A stretch of 64,000 nt of DNA from contig JAIBEI010000041.1 of NCBI GenBank assembly GCA_019459055.1, positions 863-64,862 of the forward strand, written 5' to 3'. The translations under genes were made by a program, and so were the position numbers. Below the pieces are notes generated by a model. The model had not been told where the DNA came from, did not search any database, and worked only from the letters and a program-made list of their open reading frames with translations. The stretch is from Thiobacillus sp. Lineage in GTDB: Bacteria > Pseudomonadota > Gammaproteobacteria > Burkholderiales > Thiobacillaceae. Of this stretch, positions 46,634 to 64,000 are shown one piece after another; within the stretch, counting starts at the first letter, position 1; the number at the start of each line of letters is the position of its first letter.

Positions 46634-46660
46634 AAAAACCGGCCCAAAGGCCGGTTTTTT
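46632..46660. terminator. Bidirectional intrinsic terminator
   Basis: AAAAAAACCGGCC-CAAA-GGCCGGTTTTTT between convergent genes. Confidence 0.9.
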
Positions 46661-46677
46661 CGTTCCTTGACCCGGAA

Positions 46678-46959: not shown

Positions 46960-47144
46960 TTGATTTCCCTTAAATTTACAAAATTGAACCCACACCAGAG
47001 ATCGGTCCGGGACGTGTAATCCAGCCGACGCGCGGATTCTAGCAAATCGGCAAAAGAAAACCACAATCTATTAAATTTCTTCTAAAGCAGGAACAATGTG
47101 TTGCCGGATAACAACAAATCCCCAAAAAAAGGAGGGGAATCGGC

Positions 47145-47435
47145 TCATCGGCCCTGGTGTTCGATCATTTCACCCGGCTGGCTGCCGGGGCGCAGCTTGC
47201 CCTGGTAGATAAAGCCGGCGCCATAGCGGCGGCGGCCATCCGGCGCGGTGACGAGTTCGTTTTCACTCCAGATCCAGACATGGCCGTCGCGGGTATCGAG
47301 GATGAACGCCCGTCCGCCGCCCTTGCCGCCTTCGGCGCCGGCCAGTGGCAAGGCCTCGTAACGCCCGGCCTCATCCGCCCATGCGCCGGCCGACACGGCC
47401 AGCAGTCCCAACAGCATCCATCCTGTCCGCATCAT
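47145..47435 (-). CDS. Hypothetical secreted protein
   Basis: Signal peptide (LLGLLAVSAGAWA) followed by the beta-rich FILDTRDGHVWIW. Confidence 0.65.
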   Translation of the reverse strand: MMRTGWMLLGLLAVSAGAWADEAGRYEALPLAGAEGGKGGGRAFILDTRDGHVWIWSENELVTAPDGRRRYGAGFIYQGKLRPGSQPGEMIEHQGR

Positions 47436-47518
47436 GCATCCTTTCATGTGGCCCGAATTACCCACCCCCACCAACCGCGCCTACATTTTTGAACGGGCAT
47501 TTCAATGGACCTCCGGGG

Positions 47519-50656: not shown

Positions 50657-50726
50657 GGATAATCAGTACAACAGTAAATGGCCTTGAATGATAATCGCTC
50701 GCGCCACTCGCTTCCACCCGTAAAAG

Positions 50727-50768
50727 GTAGGCCGTGGTTGTAAAGCCACTAAAGCGGCAACAATCACG
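50727..50768 (+). repeat. GTAG-footed REP-like branched hairpin, copy 2
   Basis: GTAGGCCGTGGTTGTAAAGCCACTAAAGCGGCAACAATCACG, homologous to 15941-15982. Confidence 0.8.
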
Positions 50769-50839
50769 ACCAGCTTCACCTTGCTCGATGTGGGGGGATT
50801 TTGTTACCGTGGCGCGCAACCCGGCAGATTGGAAGCAGC

Positions 50840-51373
50840 ATGAATTTTTGCAGTGAATGTGGCAGCGCCGTGGCGCTGCGCGTGCCCGAAGGCGATCATC
50901 TGCCGCGCCATGTGTGTCCCGGCTGCGGCACCATCCATTACCAGAACCCCAAGATGGTGGTCGGCTGCATCCCGGAATGGGAAGACAAGGTGCTGTTGTG
51001 CCGCCGCGCCATCGAACCCAAATACGGGCTGTGGACGCTGCCGGCCGGCTTCATGGAGAACGGCGAAACCACGCTCGAAGGCGCCGCGCGCGAGACGTGG
51101 GAAGAAGCCGGAGCGCGCATCGAGGTCGGCGGCCTCTATACCCTGTATAACCTGCCGCACATCAATCAGGTGTACTTCCTGTTCCGCGCCCGCCTGCTCG
51201 ATCTGGATTTCCAGCCCGGGATCGAATCGCTGGAAACCAGGCTGTTCACCGAAGCCGAAATTCCCTGGGACGAAATCGCCTTCCGCACCGTGCGCGTCAC
51301 GCTGGAACAGTACTTCAGCGACCGCCGCACAGGCTCATTCGACTTTCATTTCGGCGACATCCGCACGCGCTGA
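50840..51373 (+). CDS. Nudix hydrolase with N-terminal zinc ribbon
   Basis: FCSECG...CPGCG, YQNPKMVVG and the Nudix box PAGFMENGETTLEGAARETWEEA. Confidence 0.93.
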   Translation: MNFCSECGSAVALRVPEGDHLPRHVCPGCGTIHYQNPKMVVGCIPEWEDKVLLCRRAIEPKYGLWTLPAGFMENGETTLEGAARETWEEAGARIEVGGLYTLYNLPHINQVYFLFRARLLDLDFQPGIESLETRLFTEAEIPWDEIAFRTVRVTLEQYFSDRRTGSFDFHFGDIRTR

Positions 51374-51392
51374 GTTTACGACCCATGCTGCT

Positions 51393-52895
51393 TCAGGCGG
51401 CGACAGCGAACTGCTCCCGCCCGATCACATCCATGCTCACACGCAGCCAGCCTTCGTGGGTTTCCTGCACTTCACCCAGCAGCAGGCGATACACCATGTC
51501 GCCGTCGCGCAGCATCAGCGGCGTACCCAGCCGGTAATGCGTCTCGGGGATCAGCAGGTTGCTGACGCCCTGGTCGAGATGGGTCATCGGCATGAATACG
51601 GCCCAGGTCTTGTCCTGCGCCCCACCCTGACCATCCGGCTCGAAATAGATTTCCACCCGCTTGGGGTGACATGACAGGCGCTGGGTGCCAACCAAATGCT
51701 GGCCGTCTTCCTCACGGTTCCAGCGAATCGCCAGCAATTGCCAGACGCTCTCGGACGGATCCCAGTTCACCGCCACTAGGCGGCCATGCGGCAGCGCCTC
51801 GGGCAGCGCAAAGCCCATGCCCTTCGTACTCTCGTCACGCAACATCCACGGCTCCAGGGCAGGCCGAGTCTTGGCGGCATCGGGGGGGGCCAGTACTGCC
51901 AGGATGTTGGCCATCCCCGCTGCCGCCCACACTCGGCCGAAGCGGTGCGTGCGTTGGCGGTTGCGGCGGATGCCACCGCGTTCGATCAGACTCGCCGCCT
52001 GCTGGGTGAGTCCGTTATTTCCCTCTTCCGCTGGGGTTTGGTCGAGCGATTTCAGGTGATCGATGAGCGGGCGCAGGGCAAGGTAACGCAGACGGCGCCC
52101 CTCTACGCACGCACCATCCAGCACACTGGCGCCTTCAGACAGCGAAAGATCCACCATGTGCGTGTGCGCCTCGCGCAGTGGCGCGGCTTCGGGCAGCGGC
52201 AAAGAGTCGTAGCCATCGATGATCTGCGCAATGGACTCAATTTCCTGGGTGCGGTAGCCCAGTGGATGCACCAGCCCCATCAGCACCACCAGCATGTATT
52301 CGCGCGCGCAGTGGGTGGGCCGCGCGTCGATCTGCACCGTCTGCGTCGCAAAACCGTCGCGCTCGGCCAGGCGATAGATCTTGTGCATGCGGCGCCAGGC
52401 CGATGCGGACGGCGTGCGCGCCTGATGATAGTTCCAGCGCATGACCAGGCCGGCGTAACGCAGCACACGGGTGGCAATCTCGGCGGCAAAGGGCTTCAGT
52501 TCCGCACTGGCCGGCGTACGGTACGCCTGCTTCAGCATTGCAAGCCAGGCTTCCGCCAGCAGCGACCAGAACACCCACGATTCACGCCACAAGGCCTGGC
52601 GCGCCATCCGGAACGAGGACTGGTTGCGCACATACTGCTCGACGACGCGCCGTTGCAGCGGCAGGCCCGCCTCTTCCAGCCTCATCAATGAGTTCATGCG
52701 GCTGAGCGAAGCCACTTCATTTTCAGCATTGAAACGCTCCAGCCCCTCGACCAGCACATGATGCGCGTCGTAATCAGAGTCGGTAGGCAAGGCCTTCAGC
52801 CATTTATCGATGGCTTTCGCGGAAGCAAACGGCGAGCCTTCTCCGACTTTTCTGCGACGGGCGATCGCGCTCAACATATCGAAAAAATCGGTCAT
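51393..52895 (-). CDS. Hypothetical ~500-aa helical protein with a C-terminal atypical PilZ-like region
   Basis: Long ORF with a helical N-terminus; RNRQR (RxxxR) and DESTKG (DxSxxG) motifs are followed by beta-strand-rich sequence. Confidence 0.75.
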   Translation of the reverse strand: MTDFFDMLSAIARRRKVGEGSPFASAKAIDKWLKALPTDSDYDAHHVLVEGLERFNAENEVASLSRMNSLMRLEEAGLPLQRRVVEQYVRNQSSFRMARQALWRESWVFWSLLAEAWLAMLKQAYRTPASAELKPFAAEIATRVLRYAGLVMRWNYHQARTPSASAWRRMHKIYRLAERDGFATQTVQIDARPTHCAREYMLVVLMGLVHPLGYRTQEIESIAQIIDGYDSLPLPEAAPLREAHTHMVDLSLSEGASVLDGACVEGRRLRYLALRPLIDHLKSLDQTPAEEGNNGLTQQAASLIERGGIRRNRQRTHRFGRVWAAAGMANILAVLAPPDAAKTRPALEPWMLRDESTKGMGFALPEALPHGRLVAVNWDPSESVWQLLAIRWNREEDGQHLVGTQRLSCHPKRVEIYFEPDGQGGAQDKTWAVFMPMTHLDQGVSNLLIPETHYRLGTPLMLRDGDMVYRLLLGEVQETHEGWLRVSMDVIGREQFAVAA

Positions 52896-52930
52896 GAATG
52901 GTGTCAGCTTGTTTCGGATGCCTACAGACC

Positions 52931-52947
52931 AGCACCATTTATGCCAA
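52931..52947 (-). promoter_or_regulatory. Sigma54-like promoter for the PilZ-like gene
   Basis: Minus strand TTGGCATAAATGGTGCT (GG-N10-GC), about 35 nt upstream of the ATG at 52895. Confidence 0.45.
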
Positions 52948-53140
52948 ACCCATGGCCATAGCGTGTTTATTTCAACGCATTGGTTTTGTTGGGGTTTGCA
53001 ATGTTCACACGCGGCGGCTTTCCGGTGAATTAACGAAAATCCGACACTCGCTGTTGAAGCCGCGTCAATCCGACCCGGCACGCGGATTGCCATCGGGTTC
53101 GCCTCACAAAGCGGGACGAACCCGCTACAATGCGCGCCGA

Positions 53141-53228
53141 GGAAGCGTGGCAGAGTGGTCGATTGCACCGGTCTTGAAAACCGGCAACGGGCAACCGTTC
53201 GTGAGTTCGAATCTCACCGCTTCCGCCA
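53141..53228 (+). tRNA. tRNA-Ser (anticodon TGA)
   Basis: GGAAGCG acceptor stem, CCGGT-CT-TGA-AA-ACCGG anticodon arm, long variable arm, GTTCGAATC T-loop and encoded CCA. Confidence 0.97.
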
Positions 53229-53271
53229 GAATGATTAAACCCAGATTGTTCGTTCGGGCGAGATGCTTTGG

Positions 53272-53326
53272 GTAGGGTGCACCCGTGCACCGATTGATGC
53301 CCAAATGTGTACAGAGTGCACCCTAT
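53272..53326. repeat. REPIN-like doublet (GTAG family), copy B
   Basis: GTAGGGTGCACCCGTGCACC-GATTGATGCCC-AAAT-GTGTACAGAGTGCACCCTAT; same arms and spacer as 3636-3690. Confidence 0.8.
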
Positions 53327-53416
53327 GTGCCATAAATCGCCCAATGAAAATCTGGGGTAAAACGCCCAACGGGCGTTTTTTGTTGTGCCGCCCACACTTG
53401 ATGAGAAAATCTGCGG

Positions 53417-54274
53417 ATGGCACAGTCTTCCCCACTCACCCCCGTCAACCACAATCGCGACAGCGTCGGGATGACCTATGTCTACCCTGTGGTCTCACGC
53501 CGTGCGGGGGGCGTCTCGGTGGGGGTCAACCTCAATCCCAACAATGCCTGCAACTGGGCGTGCGTGTATTGCCAGGTGCCGGGCCTGACGCGCGGCACCT
53601 CGCCCGAGACCGATCTGGCGCAGCTGGAAGCCGAACTGCGCACGATGCTCGCCGATATCGTCCACGGCGACTTCATGCAAACGCGCGTGCCCGAGGGCGC
53701 GCGGCGGCTGAACGACATCGCGCTGTCGGGCAACGGCGAGCCGACCAGCGCCAAGGCCTTTCCGCAGGTCATCGAGCTGATCGGCCGGGTGATGAATGAC
53801 TTCGATCTGGTCGGGAAGATCAAGCTGGTGCTGATCACCAACGGCAGTCTGTCCGACCGGACGCGGGTGCAGGAGGGCCTCACCAGAATGGCGGCGCTGA
53901 ACGGCGAAGTCTGGTTCAAGTTCGACAGCGCGACCGCCGCCGGCATGCGCAGCATCAACCAGACGCGGATTTCACCCGACAGGCAGTTCGAGCGGCTGGC
54001 CGTAGCCGCGCGGCTGTGCCCGACCTGGCTGCAAACCTGCGTGTTCGCGCTCGACGGCAAGCCGCCATCGGAAGCGGAACAGGCAGCCTATCTGGCCGCG
54101 GTGGCGCGCATCCGGCAGCAATCGATCCCGCTGCAGGGCGTGCTGCTGTATGGCCTGGCGCGGCCTTCGATGCAGCCGCAGGCAGGCCGGCTGTCGGCGC
54201 TGCCCGCTGAATGGCTCGAAGCCTTCGCCGAAAAAATCCGCGCGGTCGGCTTGCCGGTTCTGGTTTCACCATGA
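53417..54274 (+). CDS. Radical SAM protein
   Basis: CNWACVYC (CxxxCxxC), YVYPVVSRRAGG and LSGNGEPT. Confidence 0.9.
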   Translation: MAQSSPLTPVNHNRDSVGMTYVYPVVSRRAGGVSVGVNLNPNNACNWACVYCQVPGLTRGTSPETDLAQLEAELRTMLADIVHGDFMQTRVPEGARRLNDIALSGNGEPTSAKAFPQVIELIGRVMNDFDLVGKIKLVLITNGSLSDRTRVQEGLTRMAALNGEVWFKFDSATAAGMRSINQTRISPDRQFERLAVAARLCPTWLQTCVFALDGKPPSEAEQAAYLAAVARIRQQSIPLQGVLLYGLARPSMQPQAGRLSALPAEWLEAFAEKIRAVGLPVLVSP

Positions 54275-54675
54275 TCCACGGCATCGGCACCGACCTGCTG
54301 GACGCCGGGCGGATTCGCAGCGGCCTCGCGCGCTTTGGCGAGCCCTACGCAAACCGCATCCTCGCCCCGGCCGAATATGCCGGATATGAAGCCAGCCGCG
54401 ATCCGGCGCGCTTCATCGCCAAATGCTTCGCCGCCAAGGAGGCGTTCGCCAAGGCTGCGGGAACCGGGCTGCGCGCGCCGGTATCGCTGCGCAACATCGC
54501 CGTGCTGCGCGACCCGCGCGGCAAACCCTTCCTGCAATGCGCGCCCGAACTCGCCGCCTGGCTGGCCACGCGCGGCGTCACGGCGCATCATGTTTCGCTG
54601 TCGGACGAGGGCGACCTTGTGCTGGCGTTTGTCGTGCTGGAGCAATCCCCTTCTTCTTCGGAGAACGCAACATGA
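54271..54675 (+). CDS. acpS: Holo-ACP synthase
   Basis: MIHGIGTDL, FAAKEAFAKAAGTG, GKP and HVSLSDE. Confidence 0.95.
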   Translation: MIHGIGTDLLDAGRIRSGLARFGEPYANRILAPAEYAGYEASRDPARFIAKCFAAKEAFAKAAGTGLRAPVSLRNIAVLRDPRGKPFLQCAPELAAWLATRGVTAHHVSLSDEGDLVLAFVVLEQSPSSSENAT

Positions 54676-55751
54676 CCCTTGGCCCCTTGATGCTCGACGT
54701 GACGGGCACCGAACTGACCGACGACGACCGCCGCCGCCTCGCCCATCCGCTCGTCGGCGGGGTGATCCTGTTTTCCCGCAACTACCGCGATCCGGCGCAG
54801 CTGGCCGCGCTGACCGTAGAGATCCACGCACTCAAGCCCGCGCCACTGCTGATCGGCGGCGATCAAGAGGGCGGCCGGGTGCAGCGCTTCCGCGAAGGTT
54901 TCACCCGCCTGCCGCCGATGCGCGCCTTCGGCGAAATCTGGAACGAACACCCGCAGCGCGCCCGCGAACTGGCGCGCGAAACCGGTTTTGTGCTGGCGAG
55001 CGAGCTGCGCGCGCACGGCGTCGACTTCAGCTTTGCGCCGGTGCTCGACCTGGATTACGGCGCCTCTTCGGTGATCGGTGACCGCGCCTTCCATGCCGAC
55101 CCGCACGCAGTGTTCCAGCTGGGGCAGGCGGTGATGCTCGGTATGAAGGACGCCGGCATGGCCGCCTGCGGCAAGCACTTTCCCGGCCACGGCTACGTCA
55201 AGGCGGATTCGCATGTCGCGATTCCGGTGGACGAACGCACCCTGGCCGACATGGCGATAACCGATCTGGTGCCGTTCCGGCTGATGATCGAGGCGGGGCT
55301 GGCCGCGGTCATGCCGGCGCACGTGATCTATCCCGAGGTCGACGACCGGCCTGCCGGATTTTCAAAAGTGTGGCTGCAAAAGCTGCTACGCCGTCAGCTC
55401 GGTTTCGACGGCGCGATTTTCAGCGACGACCTGTGCATGGAAGGCGCCGCCGTGGCGGGCGGCGTGGTCGAGCGGGTGGTCGCGGCGCTCGATGCCGGCT
55501 GCGACATGGCGCTGGTCTGCAACCGGCCCGACCTGGCGGACGAGGTGCTGGCCAATCTGAAGGTGGACTGGCCCGCGCCCGCCCGCGCGCGGCTGGCACG
55601 CATGCACGGCCACCCGCACCCACCGACGCTGGTCGAGCTGCGCGAGTCGGCGCGCTACGTCAGCGCGCTGCACCGCATCGCCGGGCTGGGGCAGGATTCC
55701 GCCGACCTCAACCTGCAGGCCGACCCGACCGATTACTGTGGCCGCGCATAA
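54672..55751 (+). CDS. nagZ: Beta-N-acetylhexosaminidase
   Basis: GGVILFSRNY, DQEGGRVQRFR, FAPVLDLD, CGKHFPGHG, DSH and FSDDLCMEGA. Confidence 0.96.
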   Translation: MTLGPLMLDVTGTELTDDDRRRLAHPLVGGVILFSRNYRDPAQLAALTVEIHALKPAPLLIGGDQEGGRVQRFREGFTRLPPMRAFGEIWNEHPQRARELARETGFVLASELRAHGVDFSFAPVLDLDYGASSVIGDRAFHADPHAVFQLGQAVMLGMKDAGMAACGKHFPGHGYVKADSHVAIPVDERTLADMAITDLVPFRLMIEAGLAAVMPAHVIYPEVDDRPAGFSKVWLQKLLRRQLGFDGAIFSDDLCMEGAAVAGGVVERVVAALDAGCDMALVCNRPDLADEVLANLKVDWPAPARARLARMHGHPHPPTLVELRESARYVSALHRIAGLGQDSADLNLQADPTDYCGRA

Positions 55752-56679
55752 ACACGATCACGGCGCCACGTCCGGCCACAGCCACCATCACACGGCGCAA
55801 AACGGCACCCTGCTCGTCGCCCTGCTGCTGACGCTGGCCTTTGCCGGGGTCGAGGCTGCAGCCGGCTGGTGGACGGGCTCGCTCGCGCTGCTGGCCGACG
55901 CCGCCCACATGCTCACCGACAGCACCGCGCTGGGACTGGCTGCGGCCGCGGCCTGGCTGGCGCGCCAACAGCCCAGCATGCGGCATTCCTACGGCCTGAT
56001 GCGTGCGGAAGTCCTGGCGGCGCTGTTCAACAGCCTATTGATGCTGGTGCTGATCGGTTTCATCGTGCGAGAAGCCCTCGAGCGCATCGGTGCCCCGCGC
56101 GACATTGCCGGCGGCACGGTCATCACCGTCGCGGCCATCGGTCTCGCGATCAATCTCGCCGTCGCCTGGGTGCTGAGCCGCGGCGAACACACGCTCAACA
56201 GTCGCGCCGCGCTGCTCCATGTGCTGGGCGACGCGCTCGGCTCGGTGGCGGCGATTGCGGCCGGCATCGTCATCGTCACCACCGGCTGGACCCCGATCGA
56301 CCCGCTGCTGTCCCTGCTGGTGGCCGCACTGATTCTGGTTTCGGCGCTGCGCCTGCTGCGCGAGGTCGTGCACGTGCTGATGGAGGGCGTGCCGCTCAAT
56401 CTCCGGCTCGACACCATCGGCCAGGATCTGGCCAGGCTCGACGGCGTGCTGCGGGTGCATGACCTGCACGTGTGGACCCTTTCGTCCGACACCATCGCAC
56501 TGTCGGCCCACCTGGAAATCCGCAGTCTGGCCGACTGGCCTGGCATCCTCGCCGCCGCACGCCAGCTGATGGACACACAACACGGCATCCGCCACGTCAC
56601 GCTGCAACCCGAGGTGATGGCCGCACAACCGCTCCTGCGCGGCGACTGGCCCCCTCGCGCAAGCGGCTCGCAAAGATAA
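55738..56679 (+). CDS. Cation diffusion facilitator (CzcD/ZitB-like Zn/Co/Cd exporter)
   Basis: His-rich N-terminus, SLALLADAAHMLTD, AALLHVLGDALGS and VHDLHVWTLS. Confidence 0.93.
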   Translation: MAAHKHDHGATSGHSHHHTAQNGTLLVALLLTLAFAGVEAAAGWWTGSLALLADAAHMLTDSTALGLAAAAAWLARQQPSMRHSYGLMRAEVLAALFNSLLMLVLIGFIVREALERIGAPRDIAGGTVITVAAIGLAINLAVAWVLSRGEHTLNSRAALLHVLGDALGSVAAIAAGIVIVTTGWTPIDPLLSLLVAALILVSALRLLREVVHVLMEGVPLNLRLDTIGQDLARLDGVLRVHDLHVWTLSSDTIALSAHLEIRSLADWPGILAAARQLMDTQHGIRHVTLQPEVMAAQPLLRGDWPPRASGSQR

Positions 56680-56849
56680 ACTGGGGCCAGACGCGGGGCC
56701 GCGCACAGTCGAACCCCGTCCCTCCCGGCTCGGCTAATCGGCTGAGTCACACGCCCCTGCGCTCTGCGCTAAGCCAGCGCGTATCCGCCATGCCCGCTGT
56801 TCTGGAGGGCCTTATCCGTCACCTTTTTTAAAATATTTGCCGCCATCGC

Positions 56850-56878
56850 TTGACACATTAATGAGAATAGTTATCATT
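56850..56878 (+). promoter_or_regulatory. Sigma70 promoter overlapped by a Fur box
   Basis: TTGACA at 56850-56855 and TATCAT at 56872-56877. AATGAGAATAGTTATCATT (56860-56878) is a 9-1-9 inverted repeat with 7/9 symmetry, resembling a Fur box. Confidence 0.85.
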
Positions 56879-56904
56879 CACTAAACAAACACACAACAGC
56901 ATGA

Positions 56905-57123
56905 ATGAAACCTGATCAAGCCGAACCAGACGCCCAAGCCATGCAAACGCAAACACCTTCTTCCGTCCATTCTCCGGCCGAGCCCGGCACGCAAACTTTT
57001 CTGCCGGGCATCATTCCGGCGGACTATTTATTCCGGGGCAATCATGAAATCCTGATCAGCCACAATGGCGAGCACTATCGACTGCGCATCACCAAGAACG
57101 GCAAACTGATTCTCACCAAGTAA
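56905..57123 (+). CDS. hemP: Hemin uptake protein HemP/HmuP
   Basis: C-terminal LFRGNHEILISHNGEHYRLRITKNGKLILTK signature. Confidence 0.92.
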   Translation: MKPDQAEPDAQAMQTQTPSSVHSPAEPGTQTFLPGIIPADYLFRGNHEILISHNGEHYRLRITKNGKLILTK

Positions 57124-57194
57124 GTCTGCCACCGCACCACCAGCCCGCCAACGCGCAAAGCGCCAGCCAGCCACCCAAATCCAGGAAGACTGGC

Positions 57195-57467
57195 ATGTCC
57201 ACACCGCAATATCACGACACCCTCGACATCGTCATCGCCGCCACGCTGTGGCCGATGCACCGCTATCGGCAAACCGGATGCAACGCGCTTTCCTGCAAGG
57301 TCGAACAGCACCTCAACTGGCTGAAAAGCCGTGCCAACAGTCGGCAGCTCGCCGCGCCCTGCCAGCCCTTATCGGTGACGCAGGAGTTTTCCGGAATCGC
57401 CTGGCACCGCCGGTCAAGCACGACCGCGTACGTTATCAATTGCACCCGACGCGCAAGCGGGTCCTGA
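57195..57467 (+). CDS. Small hypothetical ORF, possibly degenerate
   Basis: GGAAG RBS-like site, co-oriented between hemP and the Ftr cluster. The first ~45 aa look protein-like (IVIAATLWPMHRY..TGC..L..KVEQHLNWL) and the tail does not. Confidence 0.35.
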   Translation: MSTPQYHDTLDIVIAATLWPMHRYRQTGCNALSCKVEQHLNWLKSRANSRQLAAPCQPLSVTQEFSGIAWHRRSSTTAYVINCTRRASGS

Positions 57468-57580
57468 CGAAACAACCCGACCCGTTCCTGAGGGACGGGC
57501 CCAGCCAGCCAACGGGCGCTCCGCCCCGGTAGCCAGCCAATACATTTTTTTCATTGGCTCTAACCGAGAAGGAGTAATTC

Positions 57581-58135
57581 ATGGCTATCGTTCGTCCCCT
57601 CATCGCCCTGGCCGTTGCCGCCAGCCTGTCCACCGCCGCCCTGGCAGCGGAATACCCCATCGGCGCGCCGCAGCAGCGCAACGGGATGGAGATCGCCGGC
57701 GTCTATCTGCAGCCGGTGGAGATGGAATCCGTGATGGGCCATCAAATGCTCCCCGCGTCCAAGGCCGACGTGCACCTGGAGGCCGACATCCGCGCCCTGG
57801 GCAACAACCCCAACGGCTTCGCCGAGGGCGACTGGATCCCTTACCTGCTGGTCAAGTACGAGGTCTGCAAGCAGGGCGGCGACTGCATCAAGGGCGACTT
57901 CCTGCCCATGGTGGCCAGCGACGGCGCGCACTACGGCGACAACGTCAAGCTGATGGGGCCCGGCAAATACCGCGTCAAGTTCACCGTGCTGCCGCCCAAC
58001 GACGAAGGCAACCACGCCGGCCACCACTTCCACCGCCACACCGACCGCCTCACCGGCGTGCGGCCCTGGTTCAAGCGGTTCACCGTGGAATGGGACTTCA
58101 CCTTCGCCGGCATCGGCAAGCGGGGAGGCTACTGA
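57581..58135 (+). CDS. Periplasmic iron-binding protein, P19/Tpd family (FtrA-like)
   Basis: Signal peptide; EYPIG, AGVYLQPVEM, HLEADI, WIPYL, PMVASDGAHYGDNVKL, GKYRVKF, HTD..TGV.PWF; AAGGAG RBS. Confidence 0.93.
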   Translation: MAIVRPLIALAVAASLSTAALAAEYPIGAPQQRNGMEIAGVYLQPVEMESVMGHQMLPASKADVHLEADIRALGNNPNGFAEGDWIPYLLVKYEVCKQGGDCIKGDFLPMVASDGAHYGDNVKLMGPGKYRVKFTVLPPNDEGNHAGHHFHRHTDRLTGVRPWFKRFTVEWDFTFAGIGKRGGY

Positions 58136-59598
58136 TGCGCCACTTGAAACCCCTGATCCTGGCCATGGCCCTGGCCGGCAGCGCCACCGCCGGCGCAGCC
58201 GGATTGCCCGTCGAGGTGGCCCAGGCCCTGCAGCAGATGCAGGACCGCCTCGCCCGCCTGGAGGCGCGCAACGCCGAGCTGGAGCGGCTACTCGCCCCCC
58301 AGCCCACTACCGCCGCCCTGGAAACCCGGGTGCAGCAGCTGGAAAGCGCCAATGCCAAGCTGGAAGAGGCCGTGGCCAGCGACCGCCTGTCCCAGGATGA
58401 GCCGGAGATCGCCACCCGCCTGAAGGCCGTGGAATTCCAGGCCATGGGGATGCAGAAGCAGGCGCGCATGGTGGAATCCCTGGAGGGCATCGCCGCCGGC
58501 GTGTCCTTCACCACCGTGGCGCAGCACGCCAACGGCGGTGCCACCACGACGGGCGAGGCGGAAAGCGAGCTCTCGTGGCGCGGCGACGCCCAGGTCAGCC
58601 TGCCCGGAGGCAGCCTCGGCAACACCGAAGGCAGCCTGTTCTTCCACTTCCGCGTGGGCCAAGGCAATGGCCTCGCCAGCCTCAACCCGATGTTCTCGGT
58701 ACCCAACGCCACCGCCTTCCAGATCGGCGCAGCCCTGCCCGACGACGCCTCGCCGATCCTGGCCCAGGCCTGGTACCAGCTTTCGGTGCCGCTGGACGAG
58801 AAACCCCTGGACCAAAGCCGGCAGCGCCTGGAGCTCAACTTCGGCAAGATCGACCCGTTCCTGTTCTTCGACCAGAACGCCGCCGCCGATGACGAGACGG
58901 TGCGCTTCATGAATCTCGCCTTCGTGCACAACCCGCTGCTGGACGCGGGCGGCGGCGCCGGCGTGGATGCCTATGGCTTCACGCCGGGGGTGCGGCTGGC
59001 CTATTTCAACGACACCCAGGCCCCACTTGGTTGGGGCGTATCCCTCGGCGTGTTCGGCTCCGACAGCGGCGCGGCCTTCAGCGACAGCCTGCAGCAGCCC
59101 TTCGTCATCCTCCAGGCGGAGACCGCGCAGCGCTTCTTCGGCGGGCTGGCCGGCAACTACCGCGTCTATGCCTGGCGCAACGGCCGCGCCACGCATCTCG
59201 ACGGCGTAAGCCTGGAGGCGCAGAGCGGCTGGGGCGTGTCCGCCGACCAGCGCCTGGGCGACGGCATCACCCTCTGGGGCCGCTACGGCCACGGCGTGCA
59301 GGGCAATCCGGCGTTCGACCGGGCGCTCACCCTGGGCGCGGAGTTCTCCGGCAACTACTGGGATCGCGGCGCCGACGGCGTCGGCCTGGGCGTGGGCTGG
59401 CTCGCCGCCTCGGACAGCTACAAGGCCGCCAACCCCACCCTGTCCGGTGCCGAGCAACTCGCCGAGCTGTACTACCGCTGGCGCGTGAACCCGCAGTTCG
59501 AGCTGTCCCCGGATTACCAGTTCATCCGCCGCGCCGGTGCCGACGGCAGCGCGGACGATGCCCACATCCTGGGCCTGCGCGCCCAGCTCACGTTCTGA
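58135..59598 (+). CDS. Outer-membrane porin (OprB/carbohydrate-porin-like) with N-terminal coiled coil
   Basis: Signal peptide, heptad coiled coil, LAQAWYQL, FGKIDPFLFFDQNAAADDETVRFMN..F..NP, ELYYRW..NPQFELSPDYQFI and terminal aromatic LRAQLTF. Confidence 0.85.
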   Translation: MRHLKPLILAMALAGSATAGAAGLPVEVAQALQQMQDRLARLEARNAELERLLAPQPTTAALETRVQQLESANAKLEEAVASDRLSQDEPEIATRLKAVEFQAMGMQKQARMVESLEGIAAGVSFTTVAQHANGGATTTGEAESELSWRGDAQVSLPGGSLGNTEGSLFFHFRVGQGNGLASLNPMFSVPNATAFQIGAALPDDASPILAQAWYQLSVPLDEKPLDQSRQRLELNFGKIDPFLFFDQNAAADDETVRFMNLAFVHNPLLDAGGGAGVDAYGFTPGVRLAYFNDTQAPLGWGVSLGVFGSDSGAAFSDSLQQPFVILQAETAQRFFGGLAGNYRVYAWRNGRATHLDGVSLEAQSGWGVSADQRLGDGITLWGRYGHGVQGNPAFDRALTLGAEFSGNYWDRGADGVGLGVGWLAASDSYKAANPTLSGAEQLAELYYRWRVNPQFELSPDYQFIRRAGADGSADDAHILGLRAQLTF

Positions 59599-59608
59599 GG
59601 CAGACGTC

Positions 59609-59941
59609 ATGCAAAGCCGACGCATCCACCCGCTCCTCCTCGCCGCCGCCCTGTATGCCGGCGCGGCCCACGCCGATCTGCCCACTTATACGCTGGTGGC
59701 GAAGGACGGGCGGCTTCAGCCTTCAACCCTGGCGGTCCCCGCCGGGGTGCGCTTCAAGATCGTCATCCGGAACGAAGGGCGCGAACCCATCGAATTCGAG
59801 AGCCTGCAACTCAGGAAGGAAAAGGTGCTGGCCCCCGGCGCCCGGTCCTTCGTGGTCATCGCCCCGCTGAAACCGGGCAAATACGACTTCTTCGACGAGT
59901 TCCATCCCGACACGTCCAAAGGCCGCATCGTCGCGAAATGA
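59609..59941 (+). CDS. Cupredoxin-domain protein (FtrB/EfeO-N-like)
   Basis: Signal peptide; LAVPAGVRFKIVIRN, EFES..LRKEKVL and PLKPGKYDFFDEFH. Confidence 0.9.
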   Translation: MQSRRIHPLLLAAALYAGAAHADLPTYTLVAKDGRLQPSTLAVPAGVRFKIVIRNEGREPIEFESLQLRKEKVLAPGARSFVVIAPLKPGKYDFFDEFHPDTSKGRIVAK

Positions 59942-60046
59942 AGACGCCCGCCATGCCCCCATCCCAGCTCGCCGGCGCTACCGCAGCCTGCCCGACCCTG
60001 TTCCCCCCGAGTGCCCTGTGGCGCCTGGTTTCAGGGAGGGTGAATC

Positions 60047-60877
60047 ATGGGTAACGCTGCCTTCATCGTCTGGCGCGAGACCATCGAGGCCATGCTGGTC
60101 ATCGGCGTCCTGCACGGCTGGCTCGCCGCCCAACCCGACTGGCTGCCCGGCCAGCGCCGCCGCGCCATGCGCTGGCTCTGGGGCGGCGTGGGCGCCGGAC
60201 TTGCGCTGGCCGGGTTGCTGGCGCTGACGCTGCTGGGCATCCAGGCCTGGGCCGACGACGTCACCCTGGAATGGTTCCAGGCGCTCATGCCGCTGGTCGC
60301 CGCCGCGCTGATTTTCCAGATGGTGGTGTGGATGCGACGTCACGGCGCCGGCCTGAAGCGCGAACTGGAAGCCGGCATGTCTGCCGCCGCCGAACGCGCC
60401 CACTGGGCCGGCACGGCGCTGCTGGCCGCCATCGCCGTGGGCCGCGAGGGCGCCGAGACGGTGATCTTCCTGTACGGCGCCGCCACCAACGACAGCGGCG
60501 TCGATCTACTCGCCGGCGGCGTCGCCGGTTTCCTGCTCGCGCTGGCGGCGTATGGCGTGCTGGTGCGGAGCGCGCGCGGGTTCTCCTGGCGAATGTTCTT
60601 CCGCATCACGGAAATCCTGTTGCTGCTGCTCGGCGGCGCTTTGCTGGTGGACGGTATCGACAAGCTGATCGGCCTGGAGGCGCTGCCGGCGTTGATCGAC
60701 CCGCTGTGGGATGCCGGTTTCCTGCTGGATGACGGCAGCCGCGCCGGCGGCCTGATCGCCGCCTTCACCGGCTGGCGCGCCCAGCCCGCCGGACTCAGCT
60801 ACCTGGCGCTGGCGCTATGGTGGGGACTGGCCTTCGCCCTGGCGTTGCGAGCAAGGCCGGCGGGAGGGCGGCGATGA
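60047..60877 (+). CDS. FTR1-family iron permease (FtrC-like)
   Basis: Two RExxE motifs (WRETIEAML, GREGAETV) and seven hydrophobic segments. Confidence 0.93.
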   Translation: MGNAAFIVWRETIEAMLVIGVLHGWLAAQPDWLPGQRRRAMRWLWGGVGAGLALAGLLALTLLGIQAWADDVTLEWFQALMPLVAAALIFQMVVWMRRHGAGLKRELEAGMSAAAERAHWAGTALLAAIAVGREGAETVIFLYGAATNDSGVDLLAGGVAGFLLALAAYGVLVRSARGFSWRMFFRITEILLLLLGGALLVDGIDKLIGLEALPALIDPLWDAGFLLDDGSRAGGLIAAFTGWRAQPAGLSYLALALWWGLAFALALRARPAGGRR

Positions 60878-62271
60878 GCGCCTGTGGGCCGACCTGCCGG
60901 CCGGCAGGCAGCGCAGGCGCAGGCGACCGCCTGGCCCGCCTGGGCCTATGGCTGCGCCGGCACCGCGGCAGCATCCTCGCCCTGCAATGGGCAGTGGTGC
61001 TGTTCTACGTCGTGGTGGTGGCCTGGCCCGCCTTCCTGCCCCTGCCCGGTGAGGACGACCATATCCTCGACAACCTCACCCGCTTCGCTCAGTTCCTGTT
61101 CTGGGGCATCTGGTGGCCCTTCGTCATCCTGTCGATGATGACCCTGGGCCGGGTCTGGTGCGGCCTGTTCTGCCCGGAAGGGGCGCTGACCGAATGGAGT
61201 TCGAAGTTCGGCCTCGGCCGCCCGGTGCCGCGTTGGCTGAAGTGGGGCGGCTGGCCGTTCCTGGCCTTCGTGCTGACCACGGTGTTCGGCCAGATGACCA
61301 GCGTCTACGAATATCCCAAGCCGGCGCTGCTGATCCTGGGCGGCTCCACGCTGGCCGCCATCGCCGTGGGGCTGCTCTACGGCCGCGGCAAGCGGGTGTG
61401 GTGCCGCCACCTGTGCCCGGTATCCGGCGTGTTCGGCCTCCTGGCCCGCATCGCCCCGGTGCACTTCGCGGTGGACCGGGCTGCCTGGGACGGCGCCGAG
61501 GAACCCGGTGCGCCGGTGAGCTGCGCGCCGCTGATCGATATCCGCCGCATGCAGTCCGCCGCCGCCTGCCACATGTGCGGCCAGTGCGCTGGGCAGCGCG
61601 GCGCGGTGCAATTGGCATTGCGCTCGCCGGAACAGGAAATTCTGCGCCTGCCTGATGCCGGCCCGAAGGCCGAGCCGCAGGATCGCTGGCCCGCGCGCCT
61701 GCTCGCCTTCGGCATGCTGGGCGTCGCCCTCGGCGCGTTCCAGTGGAGCGCCAGCCCCTGGTTCGTCGCCGCCAAGCAGATGGCAGCCGAATGGCTGATC
61801 GAGCGGGAACTCTGGTGGGCGCTGGACACCCCCGGCCAGTGGTGGCTGTTCACCCACTACCCGGAACTGAACGATGCCTTCACCTGGCTGGATGGCGGCC
61901 TGTTGCTGGCCTACCTCGGCGCGACCGCGCTGGTCGTCGGCGGCTGGATCTGGCTCTGCCTGCGGCTGGCCGCCGCCCTTGCGGGGACGCACTGGACCCG
62001 CCTGGCCATGACCCTGATCCCCTTCGCCGGGGCCAGCGTCTTCGTCGGGCTCTCCCTGCTCACCACCGGTCAGCTGTTCGGCGAGGGAATCGTGCTGGTC
62101 TGGGCCGCCCCGGCCCGGCTCACGCTGCTGGCCCTGGCCGGCCTCTGGTCCGCCAGCCTGGCCTGGCGCCTGGCGGCGGCCGGCGGGCGGCGCTGGGCCG
62201 CGCCGGTCGGCGTCGCCCTGGCCGCTGCGCTGCCGCTGTGGGCCTGGCACCAGCAATTTTTTGTCTGGTGA
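60874..62271 (+). CDS. 4Fe-4S-binding membrane polyferredoxin (FtrD-like)
   Basis: GRVWCGLFCPEG, WCRHLCPVSG, CAPL...CHMCGQC and many transmembrane helices; the ATG overlaps the ftrC stop. Confidence 0.9.
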   Translation: MSACGPTCRPAGSAGAGDRLARLGLWLRRHRGSILALQWAVVLFYVVVVAWPAFLPLPGEDDHILDNLTRFAQFLFWGIWWPFVILSMMTLGRVWCGLFCPEGALTEWSSKFGLGRPVPRWLKWGGWPFLAFVLTTVFGQMTSVYEYPKPALLILGGSTLAAIAVGLLYGRGKRVWCRHLCPVSGVFGLLARIAPVHFAVDRAAWDGAEEPGAPVSCAPLIDIRRMQSAAACHMCGQCAGQRGAVQLALRSPEQEILRLPDAGPKAEPQDRWPARLLAFGMLGVALGAFQWSASPWFVAAKQMAAEWLIERELWWALDTPGQWWLFTHYPELNDAFTWLDGGLLLAYLGATALVVGGWIWLCLRLAAALAGTHWTRLAMTLIPFAGASVFVGLSLLTTGQLFGEGIVLVWAAPARLTLLALAGLWSASLAWRLAAAGGRRWAAPVGVALAAALPLWAWHQQFFVW

Positions 62272-62361
62272 ATCATGAACGACAAGCCCCCCGTCACACT
62301 TACCGCCTCATCGACCGTGAAACACGTCCGCAGGATAGAGCCGCCGCACGGAGCCCGACAT

Positions 62362-62562
62362 CCCTGGGTGCCAACCGCAAAATTCAACAACACCAAGATC
62401 GTCGGAGGCATCGACCGCAACGGAAATCGTTTGCCTTATGCGCCCGAGTTGACCTCGAATGCGGTGTTGGCTATATGATTGGCAGCCTGAAAACCAGCTT
62501 AAGCGCATCACGTCTCCAGCCAATTTGTTGACCCGGAAAACACCAAGGCCGAAAGCGCGGAT
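62362..62562 (+). pseudogene. Frameshifted C-terminal remnant of a TonB-dependent (FecA-like) receptor
   Basis: Three consecutive frame segments read WVPTAKF...GNRLPYAPELTSNAV / LGY.IGSLKTSLSA / SQFVDPENTKAESAD, resembling late barrel strands of TonB-dependent receptors. Confidence 0.6.
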
Positions 62563-62809
62563 AGTTGGTGTGAATTACAAGTTCTGATGCCGGGCGGAGC
62601 GACAGCATGGCGCGGCGGCGATTCGCCGCCCACACATGAAAAGTGGAAAGAGGCCTGTCGGCGGGACTGCCCGCCCCTTCTTCCCGGCCCATACAGGCAT
62701 CAACCTGAAATGAACCGCCTGGGCAATGGAACGGGGTAAACCTGCGTCCCGCGAATTGGGCGCGCCTCGTTTTTATCGCACGGGTTTTAACGCTGTCACA
62801 GGAGCCACC

Positions 62810-63958
62810 ATGAGCACACCGCATATCGCCATACTCGGATCGGGGTTCGCCGCGCTCACCGCGGTGCGCGAACTGCGCCGGCGCGACCGCGTAGCCCGCA
62901 TCACGCTCATCGCCCCCAAAGCCGAGCTGATGTATTACCCGAGCCTGATCTGGGTGCCGTCCGGGTTGCGGCGCGGCGCCGATCTCAACATCGACGTGGC
63001 GGGTTTTCTGGCCGAACACAAGGTCGGGTTTCACGCCGGGCGGGTGACCGGATTGCAGGATGGCGGGCGCAGCGTATTGACCGACAACGGCACGGTGACG
63101 AACGATGCGCTGCTGATCGCCAGCGGCGGCCGTTTCCTCAAGGCGATGCCCGGGATCGAACACGCGCTGACCCTCTGCGAAGGCGCGCCCGCTGCCGAAG
63201 CGATCCGCGAACGGCTGGCCGGCATGGCCGGCGGCACCGTCGCCTTCGGATTCGGCACCAATCCCAAGGAGCAGGGCGCGATGCGCGGCGGGCCGATGTT
63301 CGAGCTGCTGTTCGGCATCGATACGCTGCTGCGCAGGCAGGGCCGCCGCGACGACTTCAAGCTGGTTTTCTTCAACGCCGCCAAGGAACCGGGCAAGCGC
63401 CTGGGCGACAGAGCGGTGACCGGTCTGCTGCGCGAGATGGCCAAGCGCAACATCGCCACCCACCTCGGCCACAAGCTGCTCGGCTTCGAGGCGGACAAGA
63501 TCCGGACCGAAGGCGGCGAGGTGCCGGCCGACCTGATTCTCTTCATGCCCGGCATGAGCGGCCCCGCCTGGGCAGCCGATGCCGGCCTCCCGCTGTCCGA
63601 GGGCGGGTTTTTCAAGGCCGATGCCCACTGCCAGGTGGCCGGCGCCGACAAGGTCTATGTCGCCGGCGATTCCGGCAGCTATCCCGGCCCCGACTGGCTG
63701 CCCAAGCAGGCCCACATCGCGGACCTGCAGGCGAAGGCGGCCGCCGAAAACCTGCTGCGGGCGCTCGCCGGCAAACCGCCCACCGCGCGCTTCAAGGTCG
63801 AACTCATCTGCATCGTCGACACCCTCGACCGCGGCATCCTGGTCTACCGCGACGAAAAGCGCGCGCTCATCCTGCCGCCGTGCCGCCTGTTCCACTGGGC
63901 CAAGCGGTTTTTCGAATGGCAGTACCTGCGCCCCTACCGCAAGGCGAATCGCGCATGA
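62810..63958 (+). CDS. Sulfide:quinone oxidoreductase-like FAD oxidoreductase (type III-like)
   Basis: AILGSGFAAL (Rossmann fold), LLIASGG, TLCEG, LILFMPG, VYVAGDSG, PKQAH and C-terminal LICIVD; AGGAG RBS. Confidence 0.8.
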   Translation: MSTPHIAILGSGFAALTAVRELRRRDRVARITLIAPKAELMYYPSLIWVPSGLRRGADLNIDVAGFLAEHKVGFHAGRVTGLQDGGRSVLTDNGTVTNDALLIASGGRFLKAMPGIEHALTLCEGAPAAEAIRERLAGMAGGTVAFGFGTNPKEQGAMRGGPMFELLFGIDTLLRRQGRRDDFKLVFFNAAKEPGKRLGDRAVTGLLREMAKRNIATHLGHKLLGFEADKIRTEGGEVPADLILFMPGMSGPAWAADAGLPLSEGGFFKADAHCQVAGADKVYVAGDSGSYPGPDWLPKQAHIADLQAKAAAENLLRALAGKPPTARFKVELICIVDTLDRGILVYRDEKRALILPPCRLFHWAKRFFEWQYLRPYRKANRA

Positions 63959-64000
63959 GTCGCCGACTCCCGGCGGCTGGGCCGGGCACAAAAAATCAGG

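What the first reader, a model, noticed from the sequence alone, without database searches (positions are those of the whole stretch)
56850..62271. FtrABCD-like iron uptake system with an extra outer-membrane porin
P19, cupredoxin, FTR1 and polyferredoxin in this order match the FtrABCD ferrous-iron system described in Bordetella, Brucella and Burkholderia, which as described has no dedicated outer-membrane component. Here a 487-aa OprB-like porin with a long periplasmic coiled coil sits between ftrA and ftrB, overlapping the ftrA stop, downstream of a strong Fur box. This suggests a TonB-independent, envelope-spanning Fe2+ route in which the coiled coil may dock the periplasmic carrier. The ftrA-like protein also has an added His-rich loop (NHAGHHFHRH).
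Basis: partly seen in the sequence, partly recalled or inferred. Interest (0 to 1): 0.7.

Follow-up and report, generated by a model that had tools for sequence, protein, structure and literature searches.

The report
Iron-uptake operon with its own porin
A Thiobacillus genome carries an iron-starvation operon for ferrous-iron import that includes its own outer-membrane pore, but this five-gene layout was already named FtrAPBCD in Rubrivivax gelatinosus, so it is a further member of a known and little-studied type.

Summary
One strand carries, in order: a sigma-70-like promoter overlapped by the best Fur-box match in the 64 kb window, hemP, a small unassigned ORF, ftrA (P19), a 487-aa OprB-family porin whose ATG overlaps the ftrA TGA by 1 nt, ftrB (cupredoxin), ftrC (FTR1) and ftrD (polyferredoxin).

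The claim that Ftr systems have no described outer-membrane component is out of date. Steunou et al. 2020 (PMC7415376) named a Fur-regulated five-gene operon, ftrAPBCD, in Rubrivivax gelatinosus, with FtrP an outer-membrane protein. The R. gelatinosus gene in that position is 52-53% identical to the window's porin.

The layout is common. ftrA lies directly upstream of the porin in 77 of the 80 best porin loci. In a 400-genome sample of the order, 21 of 58 ftrA-bearing genomes have the porin. Their FtrA proteins fall on one side of a single tree branch.

Metatranscriptome contigs span the ftrA-porin junction, and the operon is selectively represented in those runs.

The His-rich FtrA loop is a clade-specific substitution, not an insertion.

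FtrP's function (most likely a diffusion channel for Fe2+) is untested in every paper I could read. Docking of FtrA by its coiled coil is speculation.

Verdict: new member of a known kind, moderate interest.

The parts
56850..56877 (+). Sigma-70-like promoter: TTGACA, 16-nt spacer, TATCAT
   Evidence: matches 11 of 12 and is the only promoter-like site in 56600-62800. Conserved in L001-L004 and L022.
56857..56881 (.). Fur box: two overlapping 19-mers (56857-56875 and 56863-56881) that cover the promoter spacer and -10 hexamer
   Evidence: 14/19 in two registers, the best in the 64 kb window; 2 of 21 positions at 14/19 or better in the 2.93 Mb genome; conserved in relatives. The genome encodes two Fur-family proteins. 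Binding was not tested.
56905..57123 (+). hemP (HemP/HmuP-family small protein), first gene behind the Fur-box promoter
   Evidence: PF10636, E 3.9e-18. hemP lies upstream of ftrA in 15 of the 80 related loci, mostly Thiobacillus-clade.
57195..57467 (+). orf90: unassigned, poorly conserved ORF. Coding status is uncertain.
   Evidence: no family; 43-63% identity in L001-L004 and absent in L022; in-frame indels. Covered by RNA contigs.
57535..57559 (.). Inverted repeat AGCCAAT-N11-ATTGGCT just upstream of the ftrA ribosome-binding site. Function unknown.
   Evidence: Read directly. Largely conserved in L001-L004. Not followed up.
57581..58135 (+). ftrA: periplasmic P19-type Cu/Fe-binding protein
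   Evidence: PF10634, E 2.3e-59; the best solved relative is R. gelatinosus FtrA-P19 (7r4z, E 4e-73).
58010..58039 (+). His-rich stretch NHAGHHFHRH of FtrA (aa 144-153)
   Evidence: same length as NPMSPYYGRH in 7r4z; conserved in about 18 Thiobacillus/Hydrogenophilales loci, while other loci have xxHFGRH.
58135..59598 (+). ftrP: OprB-family outer-membrane porin of 487 aa. Signal peptide is about aa 1-22. The C-terminal residue is Phe.
   Evidence: PF04966, 77 bits. AF2 model with pLDDT 79; top Foldseek hit is P. putida OprB (4gey), E 7e-19; 52-53% identical to the gene between ftrA and ftrB in R. gelatinosus (L060, L072, L076). RNA contigs 57483-58560 and 57557-58607 span the ftrA-ftrP junction.
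58210..58446 (+). N-terminal periplasmic helical / coiled-coil region of FtrP (aa 26-104), including the conserved motif EPExxxRLKxVE (aa 90-100)
   Evidence: helices 26-52, 59-81 and 90-104, pLDDT 35-74; invariant R38, L42, E43, N46, L49, E50, P90, E91, R95, L96, K97 and E100. The heptad a/d pattern was read from the sequence.
58489..59592 (+). 16-strand beta-barrel of FtrP (aa 119-486). The long loop between strands 5 and 6 (aa 240-282) is acidic and highly conserved, and sits where L3 sits in other porins.
   Evidence: 16 strands, pLDDT about 85-95; invariant G237, K238, D240, P241, F245, D246, N248 and E254.
59609..59941 (+). ftrB: periplasmic cupredoxin
   Evidence: PF13473, E 1.5e-29.
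60047..60877 (+). ftrC: FTR1-family inner-membrane permease with REXXE motifs RETIE and REGAE
   Evidence: PF03239, E 4.9e-20. EfeU, E 1.4e-35. The motifs were read. It is the only FTR1 gene in the genome.
60874..62271 (+). ftrD: membrane polyferredoxin. The likely start is the ATG at 60874, which forms an ATGA overlap with the ftrC stop. The longest ORF starts at 60817.
   Evidence: Fer4_5, E 4e-12. NapH/MauN-like. ATGA overlap with GGGAGGG upstream.
62275..62478 (+). Remnant of a TonB-dependent receptor gene (67-aa ORF). It is not part of the operon.
   Evidence: aa 27-65 match (79-85% identity) the inside of ~700-aa open frames in two congeners; the one scanned (L082, cut at the locus end) has Plug and TonB_dep_Rec_b-barrel domains.

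Best explanation
This is a Thiobacillus copy of the five-component FtrAPBCD ferrous-iron uptake system, headed here by hemP and an unassigned small ORF.

Under iron sufficiency, Fur would sit on the box that overlaps the -10 hexamer of the single promoter at 56850-56877. Under iron limitation, one transcript would run hemP-orf90-ftrA-ftrP-ftrB-ftrC-ftrD.

FtrP is a 16-strand OprB-family barrel in the outer membrane. It has an acidic, highly conserved loop in the L3 position and an N-terminal periplasmic coiled coil that probably drives oligomerisation. It most likely serves as a TonB-independent diffusion channel that lets Fe2+ (perhaps other divalent cations too) into the periplasm.

In the periplasm, the Cu-dependent proteins FtrA (P19) and FtrB (cupredoxin) would bind and oxidise the iron. 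FtrC (FTR1, two REXXE motifs) would carry Fe3+ across the inner membrane. FtrD (polyferredoxin) would dispose of the electron.

Shown here: the gene content, the order and overlaps, the promoter and Fur-box match, homology to the R. gelatinosus operon, the predicted fold, and RNA that spans ftrA-ftrP.

Inferred: Fur control, the substrate of FtrP, and the steps after entry, which follow the published Ftr model.
For: - Domains and gene order.
- A 1-nt ftrA/ftrP overlap and an ATGA ftrC/ftrD overlap.
- Promoter plus Fur box, rare in the window and the genome and conserved in relatives. Fur-family genes are present.
- FtrAPBCD with outer-membrane FtrP, called a putative Fur-regulated operon with ftrA/FtrA iron-induced in R. 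gelatinosus: PMC7415376. Five- versus four-component systems: PMC11966278.
- The window's FtrA is closest to R. gelatinosus FtrA, 7r4z.
- The R. gelatinosus gene in the same slot is 52-53% identical to the window's porin.
- ftrA lies directly upstream of the porin in 77 of the 80 best porin loci from Beta- and Gammaproteobacteria.
- In an order-level sample, 21 of 58 ftrA-bearing genomes have the porin, and it is adjacent to ftrA in 20.
- Porin-linked FtrA proteins lie on one side of one branch (support 90/87). That needs 1 change, against a shuffled mean of 17.3.
- Predicted 16-strand barrel, most like OprB 4gey.
- It is the only OprB-family gene and the only FTR1 gene in the genome.
- Metatranscriptome contigs at 100% identity span 57483-58560 and 57557-58607. 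Ten and seven contigs fall on this 6.1 kb, against 2 and 1 on the neighbouring 20 kb.
- One of the few FtrP-like genes found outside an ftr operon (L065) still follows hemP.
- OprB-domain porins that carry metals have precedent: MnoP (PMC4827864) and the cyanobacterial iron-selective porin Slr1908 (PMC11126600).
Against: - No paper I could read tests FtrP. The 2022 FEBS J paper on the R. gelatinosus system is not held.
- The channel's substrate cannot be read from sequence. An acidic L3-position loop facing barrel arginines is also typical of general porins.
- About two thirds of sampled ftr operons work without any FtrP homologue in the genome. The pore is therefore an accessory, not a requirement.
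- The Fur box is 724 nt upstream of ftrA, and Fur binding is untested.
- The RNA evidence comes from assembled contigs, which have no strand information. No 100%-identical contig spans the ftrP-ftrB junction.
- The coiled-coil region is modelled with low confidence (pLDDT 35-74).
Confidence: 0.72

Rival explanations
1. FtrP supplies copper rather than iron. It would admit the Cu2+ needed to load the cuproproteins FtrA and FtrB, while Fe2+ enters through general porins.
For: FtrA and FtrB are copper proteins. Cu2+-bound R. gelatinosus FtrA oxidises Fe2+, as summarised in PMC11966278. The Thiobacillus FtrA has extra histidines next to the conserved RH(T)D histidine. Most ftr operons need no dedicated pore, so Fe2+ can evidently cross the outer membrane without one.
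Against: The operon sits behind a Fur box, not a copper-responsive site. Copper is needed only in catalytic amounts. FtrP-like porins keep company with hemP and other iron-linked genes. There is no direct evidence for copper.
Confidence: 0.1
2. FtrP is mainly structural. Its coiled coil and barrel would form a scaffold that holds FtrA/FtrB close to the outer membrane, or that ties the outer membrane to the periplasmic machinery. Solute passage would be of secondary importance.
For: The N-terminal extension is conserved across the family, with invariant R38, L42, E43, N46, L49, E50 and the motif EPExxxRLKxVE. FtrA co-diversifies with the presence of the porin. FtrB from five-component systems forms its own clusters (PMC11966278). 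Porins with N-terminal periplasmic domains are among the structural neighbours, for example DcaP (6eus) and OmpM1 (8bym).
Against: No interaction data exist, and I could not model a complex. The helices have low model confidence. From my own knowledge of DcaP, N-terminal coiled coils in porins serve trimerisation, which is a simpler explanation. Some family members lack the second heptad segment.
Confidence: 0.12
3. FtrP is an ordinary carbohydrate or general porin that sits in the operon without a specific role in metal uptake.
For: Its Pfam family is named 'carbohydrate-selective porin OprB'. The nearest solved structure is the sugar channel OprB of P. putida. NCBI annotates relatives as 'carbohydrate porin'.
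Against: The position between ftrA and ftrB is kept in 77 of 80 loci from many families. The porin-linked FtrA proteins form a single lineage. The start codon overlaps the ftrA stop, and RNA spans the junction. In the sequence-profile search only the C-terminal part of the barrel aligns to OprB, at profile positions 337-501. From general knowledge, Thiobacillus is a chemolithoautotroph, and this is its only OprB homologue.
Confidence: 0.04

Closest known systems
FtrAPBCD of Rubrivivax gelatinosus (Steunou et al. 2020, PMC7415376; Steunou et al. 2022, FEBS J, doi 10.1111/febs.16476, not held; FtrA structures 7r4z, 7r4u, 7r3p)
   Same: Same five genes in the same order, with an outer-membrane protein between ftrA and ftrB and a Fur box upstream. 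FtrA is the closest solved relative (E 4e-73). The R. gelatinosus gene in the FtrP slot is 52-53% identical over about 455 residues.
   Different: Here hemP and a small ORF lie between the Fur-box promoter and ftrA. FtrA carries the His-enriched stretch NHAGHHFHRH. The host is a sulfur-oxidising chemolithoautotroph. A TonB-dependent receptor remnant lies downstream.
FtrABCD of Bordetella, Brucella and Burkholderia (Brickman & Armstrong 2012; Elhassanny 2013; Mathew 2014; cited in PMC11966278 and PMC12542777)
   Same: It shares the P19, cupredoxin, FTR1 and polyferredoxin components, the presumed oxidase-permease mechanism, and iron regulation.
   Different: It has no porin gene. In my order-level sample, 37 of 58 ftrA-bearing genomes have no FtrP homologue at E <= 1e-10, and 34 of the 36 porin-less loci fetched read ftrA-ftrB-ftrC(-ftrD). 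Their FtrA proteins lie on the other side of the tree split.
MnoP, the Mn2+ outer-membrane channel of Bradyrhizobium japonicum (Hohle et al. 2011, as described in PMC4827864)
   Same: It has an OprB-type C-terminal barrel domain and is a metal-regulated, TonB-independent divalent-cation channel. JGI labels several FtrP homologues 'high affinity Mn2+ porin'.
   Different: MnoP is a 675-aa two-domain protein with an N-terminal Brucella-Rhizobium porin domain. FtrP is 487 aa, has an N-terminal coiled coil instead, and sits in an iron operon.
Slr1908 and other SLH-OprB porins of cyanobacteria (PMC11126600; PMC8707739)
   Same: It is an OprB-domain porin reported as iron-selective and needed for iron uptake. 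It also carries an N-terminal periplasmic domain in front of the barrel.
   Different: Its N-terminal domain is an SLH domain, not a coiled coil. FtrP has no SLH hit. Slr1908 is not encoded in an Ftr operon.
OprB of Pseudomonas putida (PDB 4gey)
   Same: It is the best structural match to the model: Foldseek E 7e-19, TM 0.68 on the target. Both are 16-strand barrels.
   Different: Identity is 18%. In the sequence-profile search only the C-terminal part of the barrel aligns. OprB is a sugar channel and has no N-terminal coiled coil.

Membership tests
FtrAPBCD five-component Ftr system | Co-directional gene order ftrA - outer-membrane protein gene - ftrB - ftrC - ftrD | tested here: met
   The gaps and overlaps are -1, 10, 105 and -4 nt.
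FtrAPBCD five-component Ftr system | FtrP is homologous to the gene between ftrA and ftrB of R. gelatinosus | tested here: met
   L060, L072 and L076 (R. gelatinosus and R. benzoatilyticus) are 52-53% identical over residues 32-487, in the same position.
FtrAPBCD five-component Ftr system | FtrA is a P19-family protein of the porin-linked lineage | tested here: met
   (PF10634). (7r4z, E 4e-73). (the window's FtrA falls inside the porin-linked group; branch support 90/87).
FtrAPBCD five-component Ftr system | FTR1 permease with two REXXE motifs, plus a polyferredoxin | tested here: met
   RETIE and REGAE were read in the FtrC translation. PF03239 and Fer4_5 hits.
FtrAPBCD five-component Ftr system | Fur / iron regulation | tested here: inconclusive
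   There is a strong, conserved Fur-box match over the -10 hexamer, Fur genes are present, and the operon is prominent in metatranscriptomes. No iron-dependent expression data or binding assay exist.
FtrAPBCD five-component Ftr system | Mediates Fe2+ uptake | not testable with these tools
   This needs genetics and 55Fe uptake measurements.
OprB porin family (PF04966) | Profile match above the curated threshold | tested here: met
   77 bits against 22.9, covering residues 228-487.
OprB porin family (PF04966) | 16-strand beta-barrel fold with a C-terminal aromatic residue | tested here: met
   16 strands; 4gey is the top hit. The protein ends ...LTF.
OprB porin family (PF04966) | Carbohydrate selectivity | not testable with these tools
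MnoP-type Mn2+ channel | Two-domain architecture: an N-terminal BRP porin domain plus a C-terminal OprB domain, about 675 aa | tested here: not met
   One search finds only the OprB domain. The protein is 487 aa, and its N-terminus is helical. The MnoP architecture is taken from PMC4827864.
Cyanobacterial SLH-OprB porins (Slr1908 type) | N-terminal SLH domain | tested here: not met
   no SLH family at E <= 0.01. The N-terminus is a heptad-repeat helix instead.
Canonical four-gene FtrABCD | ftrB directly follows ftrA, and the system has no outer-membrane component | tested here: not met
   The 1464-nt porin gene lies between ftrA and ftrB.

The most novel reading that the evidence does not exclude
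FtrP would be more than a passive pore. Its conserved periplasmic coiled coil and the invariant EPExxxRLKxVE segment would form a stalk that binds FtrA and/or FtrB. Fe2+ entering through the barrel would then pass directly to the copper-dependent oxidase and the FTR1 permease. The result would be a TonB-independent, physically continuous iron route across the envelope. That route would define a distinct Ftr lineage that has spread horizontally among Beta- and Gammaproteobacteria.
Probability: 0.15. Interest if true: 0.6.

Novelty: new member of a known kind. Interest (0 to 1): 0.3.

Why it matters
How Fe2+ crosses the outer membrane is usually put down to unspecified general porins. A dedicated, iron-regulated pore encoded inside the importer operon gives that step a named and testable component. 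The gene has been published as FtrP, but in the literature I could read it has only been named, never studied.

This analysis adds four points:
- The five-gene form is common. About one third of the ftr operons sampled in the order have it, and 346 species genomes hold a porin relative.
- It is an evolutionarily coherent lineage.
- The pore belongs to the OprB family, which also contains the Mn2+ channel MnoP and the cyanobacterial iron porin Slr1908.
- It is expressed as one unit with ftrA in a natural community.

For Thiobacillus, which lives at Fe(II)-rich redox boundaries, this is the only FTR1 system and the only OprB-family porin in the genome.

Tried and rejected
- NCBIfam gave no model for FtrA or for the porin.
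- Rfam found only a tRNA in 45000-64000. There is no riboswitch or sRNA in the operon leader.
- The 2022 FEBS J paper, which may say more about FtrP, is not held. No supplement text is held for the 2020 paper.
- Membership in the MnoP family and in the SLH-OprB family was considered and rejected on domain architecture.
- I considered DNA carry-over as an explanation for the RNA contigs and rejected it. The neighbouring 20 kb is almost empty in the same runs.
- The 67-aa ORF after ftrD has no Pfam hit of its own. Its origin as a TonB-dependent receptor fragment only showed through congeners. A first Pfam scan of the wrong strand of L082 gave nothing.
- The context of the lone porin in Hydrogenophilus (L046) was uninformative.
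- A class-level sample was too sparse to be useful: 14 of 400 genomes had ftrA. I replaced it with the order-level sample.
- I could not model an FtrP-FtrA complex, because the tool takes single proteins only. I also could not inspect the pore lining, because no coordinates are returned.

Full report
**1. What is there**

The + strand of 56850-62271 carries the following, in order.
- A promoter-like site, TTGACA-16-TATCAT, at 56850-56877. It matches 11 of 12 and is the only such site in 56600-62800.
- hemP at 56905-57123 (PF10636).
- An unassigned 90-codon ORF at 57195-57467.
- ftrA at 57581-58135 (P19, PF10634, E 2e-59).
- A 487-aa OprB-family porin at 58135-59598 (PF04966, 77 bits).
- ftrB at 59609-59941 (cupredoxin).
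- ftrC at 60047-60877 (FTR1). The two REXXE motifs, RETIE and REGAE, are readable in its translation.
- ftrD, ending at 62271 (polyferredoxin).

The porin ATG shares one base with the ftrA TGA, and a GGAGG lies 7 nt upstream. ftrD most likely starts at the ATG at 60874, which forms an ATGA overlap with the ftrC stop. No terminator-like site lies between ftrA and the end of ftrD.

**2. Fur box**

Positions 56857-56881 hold two overlapping 14/19 matches to the E. coli Fur consensus, and they cover the spacer and -10 hexamer of the promoter. They are the only sites of 14/19 or better in the 64 kb window. They account for 2 of only 21 such positions in the 2.93 Mb genome.

Promoter and box are conserved in five Thiobacillus relatives, while the flanks drift. 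The genome encodes two Fur-family proteins.

The box heads hemP and lies 724 nt upstream of ftrA. Whether Fur binds there is an inference.

**3. Transcription**

Two small metatranscriptomes come from the same bioreactor study as the DNA runs that hold the window at 100% of sampled words. They contain 100%-identical contigs at 57483-58560 and 57557-58607, which run from the ftrA leader 425-470 nt into the porin gene. Further contigs cover hemP to orf90 (56948-57311) and the ftrC/ftrD overlap (60609-60971).

Ten and seven contigs fall on this 6.1 kb stretch. Only two and one fall on the adjacent 20 kb. This is therefore selective expression, not DNA carry-over.

No 100%-identical contig spans the ftrP-ftrB junction. 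The contigs carry no strand information.

**4. The porin**

AlphaFold2 with a 52-sequence alignment gives pLDDT 79. The model has a confident 16-strand barrel (aa 119-486) and three N-terminal helices (26-52, 59-81, 90-104) at low to moderate confidence.

The best structural match is P. putida OprB (4gey): E 7e-19, TM 0.68 on the target, 18% identity. General porins, DcaP and OmpM1 follow. By sequence profile, only the C-terminal part of the barrel aligns to OprB.

The two heptad segments place L32, M35, L39, L42, N46, L49 and L53, and then V65, L68, N72, L75 and V79, at a/d positions. R38, L42, E43, N46, L49 and E50 are invariant in a 12-sequence alignment, as is the later segment P90, E91, R95, L96, K97, E100.

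The long loop between strands 5 and 6, where L3 sits in other porins, is the most conserved part of the protein and is acidic: GKxDPFxFFDQNxxAxDE...FVHNPLLDAGG.

It is the only OprB-family gene in the genome.

**5. It is not new as a type**

Steunou et al. [quoted passage not shown] They show that ftrA is induced by iron depletion.

A 2025 paper (PMC11966278) contrasts four-component FtrABCD with five-component FtrAPBCD. It notes that FtrB from five-component systems clusters apart, and it cites Steunou et al. 2022 (FEBS J) for FtrA structures.

The window's FtrA is closest to those structures (7r4z, E 4e-73). The Rubrivivax gene in the FtrP slot is 52-53% identical to the window's porin (L060, L072, L076).

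A full-text search for 'FtrP' or 'ftrAPBCD' returns only these two relevant papers. Neither tests FtrP itself. The 2022 paper is not held.

**6. How common it is**

A scan of one genome per species found 346 genomes that encode a relative carrying the motifs LAQAWYQ and DPF[LV]FFDQ. The lineages include Thiobacillus, Gallionellaceae, Sulfuricella, Rhodocyclaceae/Azospira, Massilia, Janthinobacterium, Noviherbaspirillum, Rubrivivax, Acidiferrobacterales/Sulfurifustis and Chromatiales.

In 77 of the best 80 loci, ftrA lies directly upstream of the porin, and nearly all of these have ftrB, ftrC and/or ftrD downstream.

In an even sample of 400 genomes of the window's order:
- 58 genomes have ftrA.
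- 21 of these have the porin, and it is adjacent to ftrA in 20. The 21st is fragmented.
- The remaining 37 have no homologue at E <= 1e-10, and 34 of the 36 porin-less loci fetched read ftrA-ftrB-ftrC(-ftrD).

In an FtrA tree, all 21 porin-linked proteins lie on one side of one branch (support 90/87). This needs one change, against a shuffled mean of 17.3, and 0 of 500 shuffles were as low. Two taxonomic families (f278, f285) hold both operon types, so operon type does not simply follow taxonomy.

**7. The His-rich loop**

NHAGHHFHRH (aa 144-153) aligns without a gap to NPMSPYYGRH of R. gelatinosus FtrA. It is a substitution pattern, not an insertion.

It is conserved in about 18 Thiobacillus/Hydrogenophilales loci. 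Other lineages have shorter or His-poor versions that end in HFGRH.

From my own knowledge of P19 structures, the final RH(T)D histidine is a copper ligand. The extra histidines would then sit next to the copper site. I did not test this.

**8. Mechanism and rivals**

The best reading is a Fur-repressed FtrAPBCD operon in which FtrP is a TonB-independent outer-membrane channel for Fe2+. The published Ftr steps would follow: FtrA/FtrB oxidation, FtrC permeation and FtrD electron disposal.

Three points support a metal role.
- The strict, lineage-wide linkage of the porin to ftr genes.
- hemP heads one of the few FtrP-like genes found outside an ftr operon (L065: hemP, porin, di-haem peroxidase, DUF2325).
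- Precedent within the OprB superfamily: MnoP and the iron-selective Slr1908.

I considered three rivals:
- A copper-supply pore.
- An unrelated sugar or general porin.

The last is strongly disfavoured. The first two cannot be excluded without experiments.

FtrP is not a member of the MnoP architecture, which has two barrel-type domains in 675 aa. It is not a member of the SLH-OprB architecture either.

**9. Verdict**

The 'extra porin' is the already named FtrP of the FtrAPBCD type, so this locus is a new member of a known kind.

What remains open is what FtrP conducts and what its conserved periplasmic extension does. That question deserves modest interest.

Noticed in passing
window 62275-62478: A 67-aa ORF directly after ftrD is a fragment of a TonB-dependent receptor. 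Its residues 27-65 match the inside of ~700-aa open frames in two congeners at 79-85% identity, and the one scanned has Plug and TonB_dep_Rec_b-barrel domains. This fits another first-reader note that the Ftr cassette sits at a former TonB-receptor locus.
   Followed up: partly
L001 7996-9315; also L005, L006, L035, L049 and L065 4150-5472: Several Thiobacillus-clade relatives carry an extra gene of about 440 aa with a C-terminal DUF2325 domain between ftrB and ftrC. The window lacks it. The same gene follows a porin and a di-haem cytochrome c peroxidase in L065. DUF2325 may be a recurrent accessory of these iron loci.
   Followed up: partly
window 57535-57559: A perfect 7-bp inverted repeat, AGCCAAT-N11-ATTGGCT, lies just upstream of the ftrA ribosome-binding site and is largely conserved in close relatives. 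It could be a regulator site or an RNA hairpin in the ftrA leader.
   Followed up: no
window 57195-57467: orf90, between hemP and ftrA, has no family hit. It is only 43-63% conserved among close relatives, shows in-frame indels, and is absent in L022. It is nevertheless covered by RNA contigs. It may be a fast-evolving small protein or an untranslated leader.
   Followed up: partly
window 46712-47007: This is the only strongly represented stretch of the neighbouring 20 kb in the two metatranscriptomes, at depths of 15.5 and 5.2. It overlaps a minus-strand ORF (46678-47064) for a small Ala/Glu-rich protein with a lipoprotein-like signal sequence (LLAVSMTAC). There is no Rfam family there.
   Followed up: partly
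L016, L020, L031, L034, L039, L057, L068 (Sulfurifustaceae / Acidiferrobacterales-type loci): In these gammaproteobacterial loci the FTR1 gene (most with a second cupredoxin gene before it) lies upstream of ftrA, and the downstream part reads porin-ftrB-ftrD with no ftrC. This is a rearranged form of the five-gene cassette.
   Followed up: no
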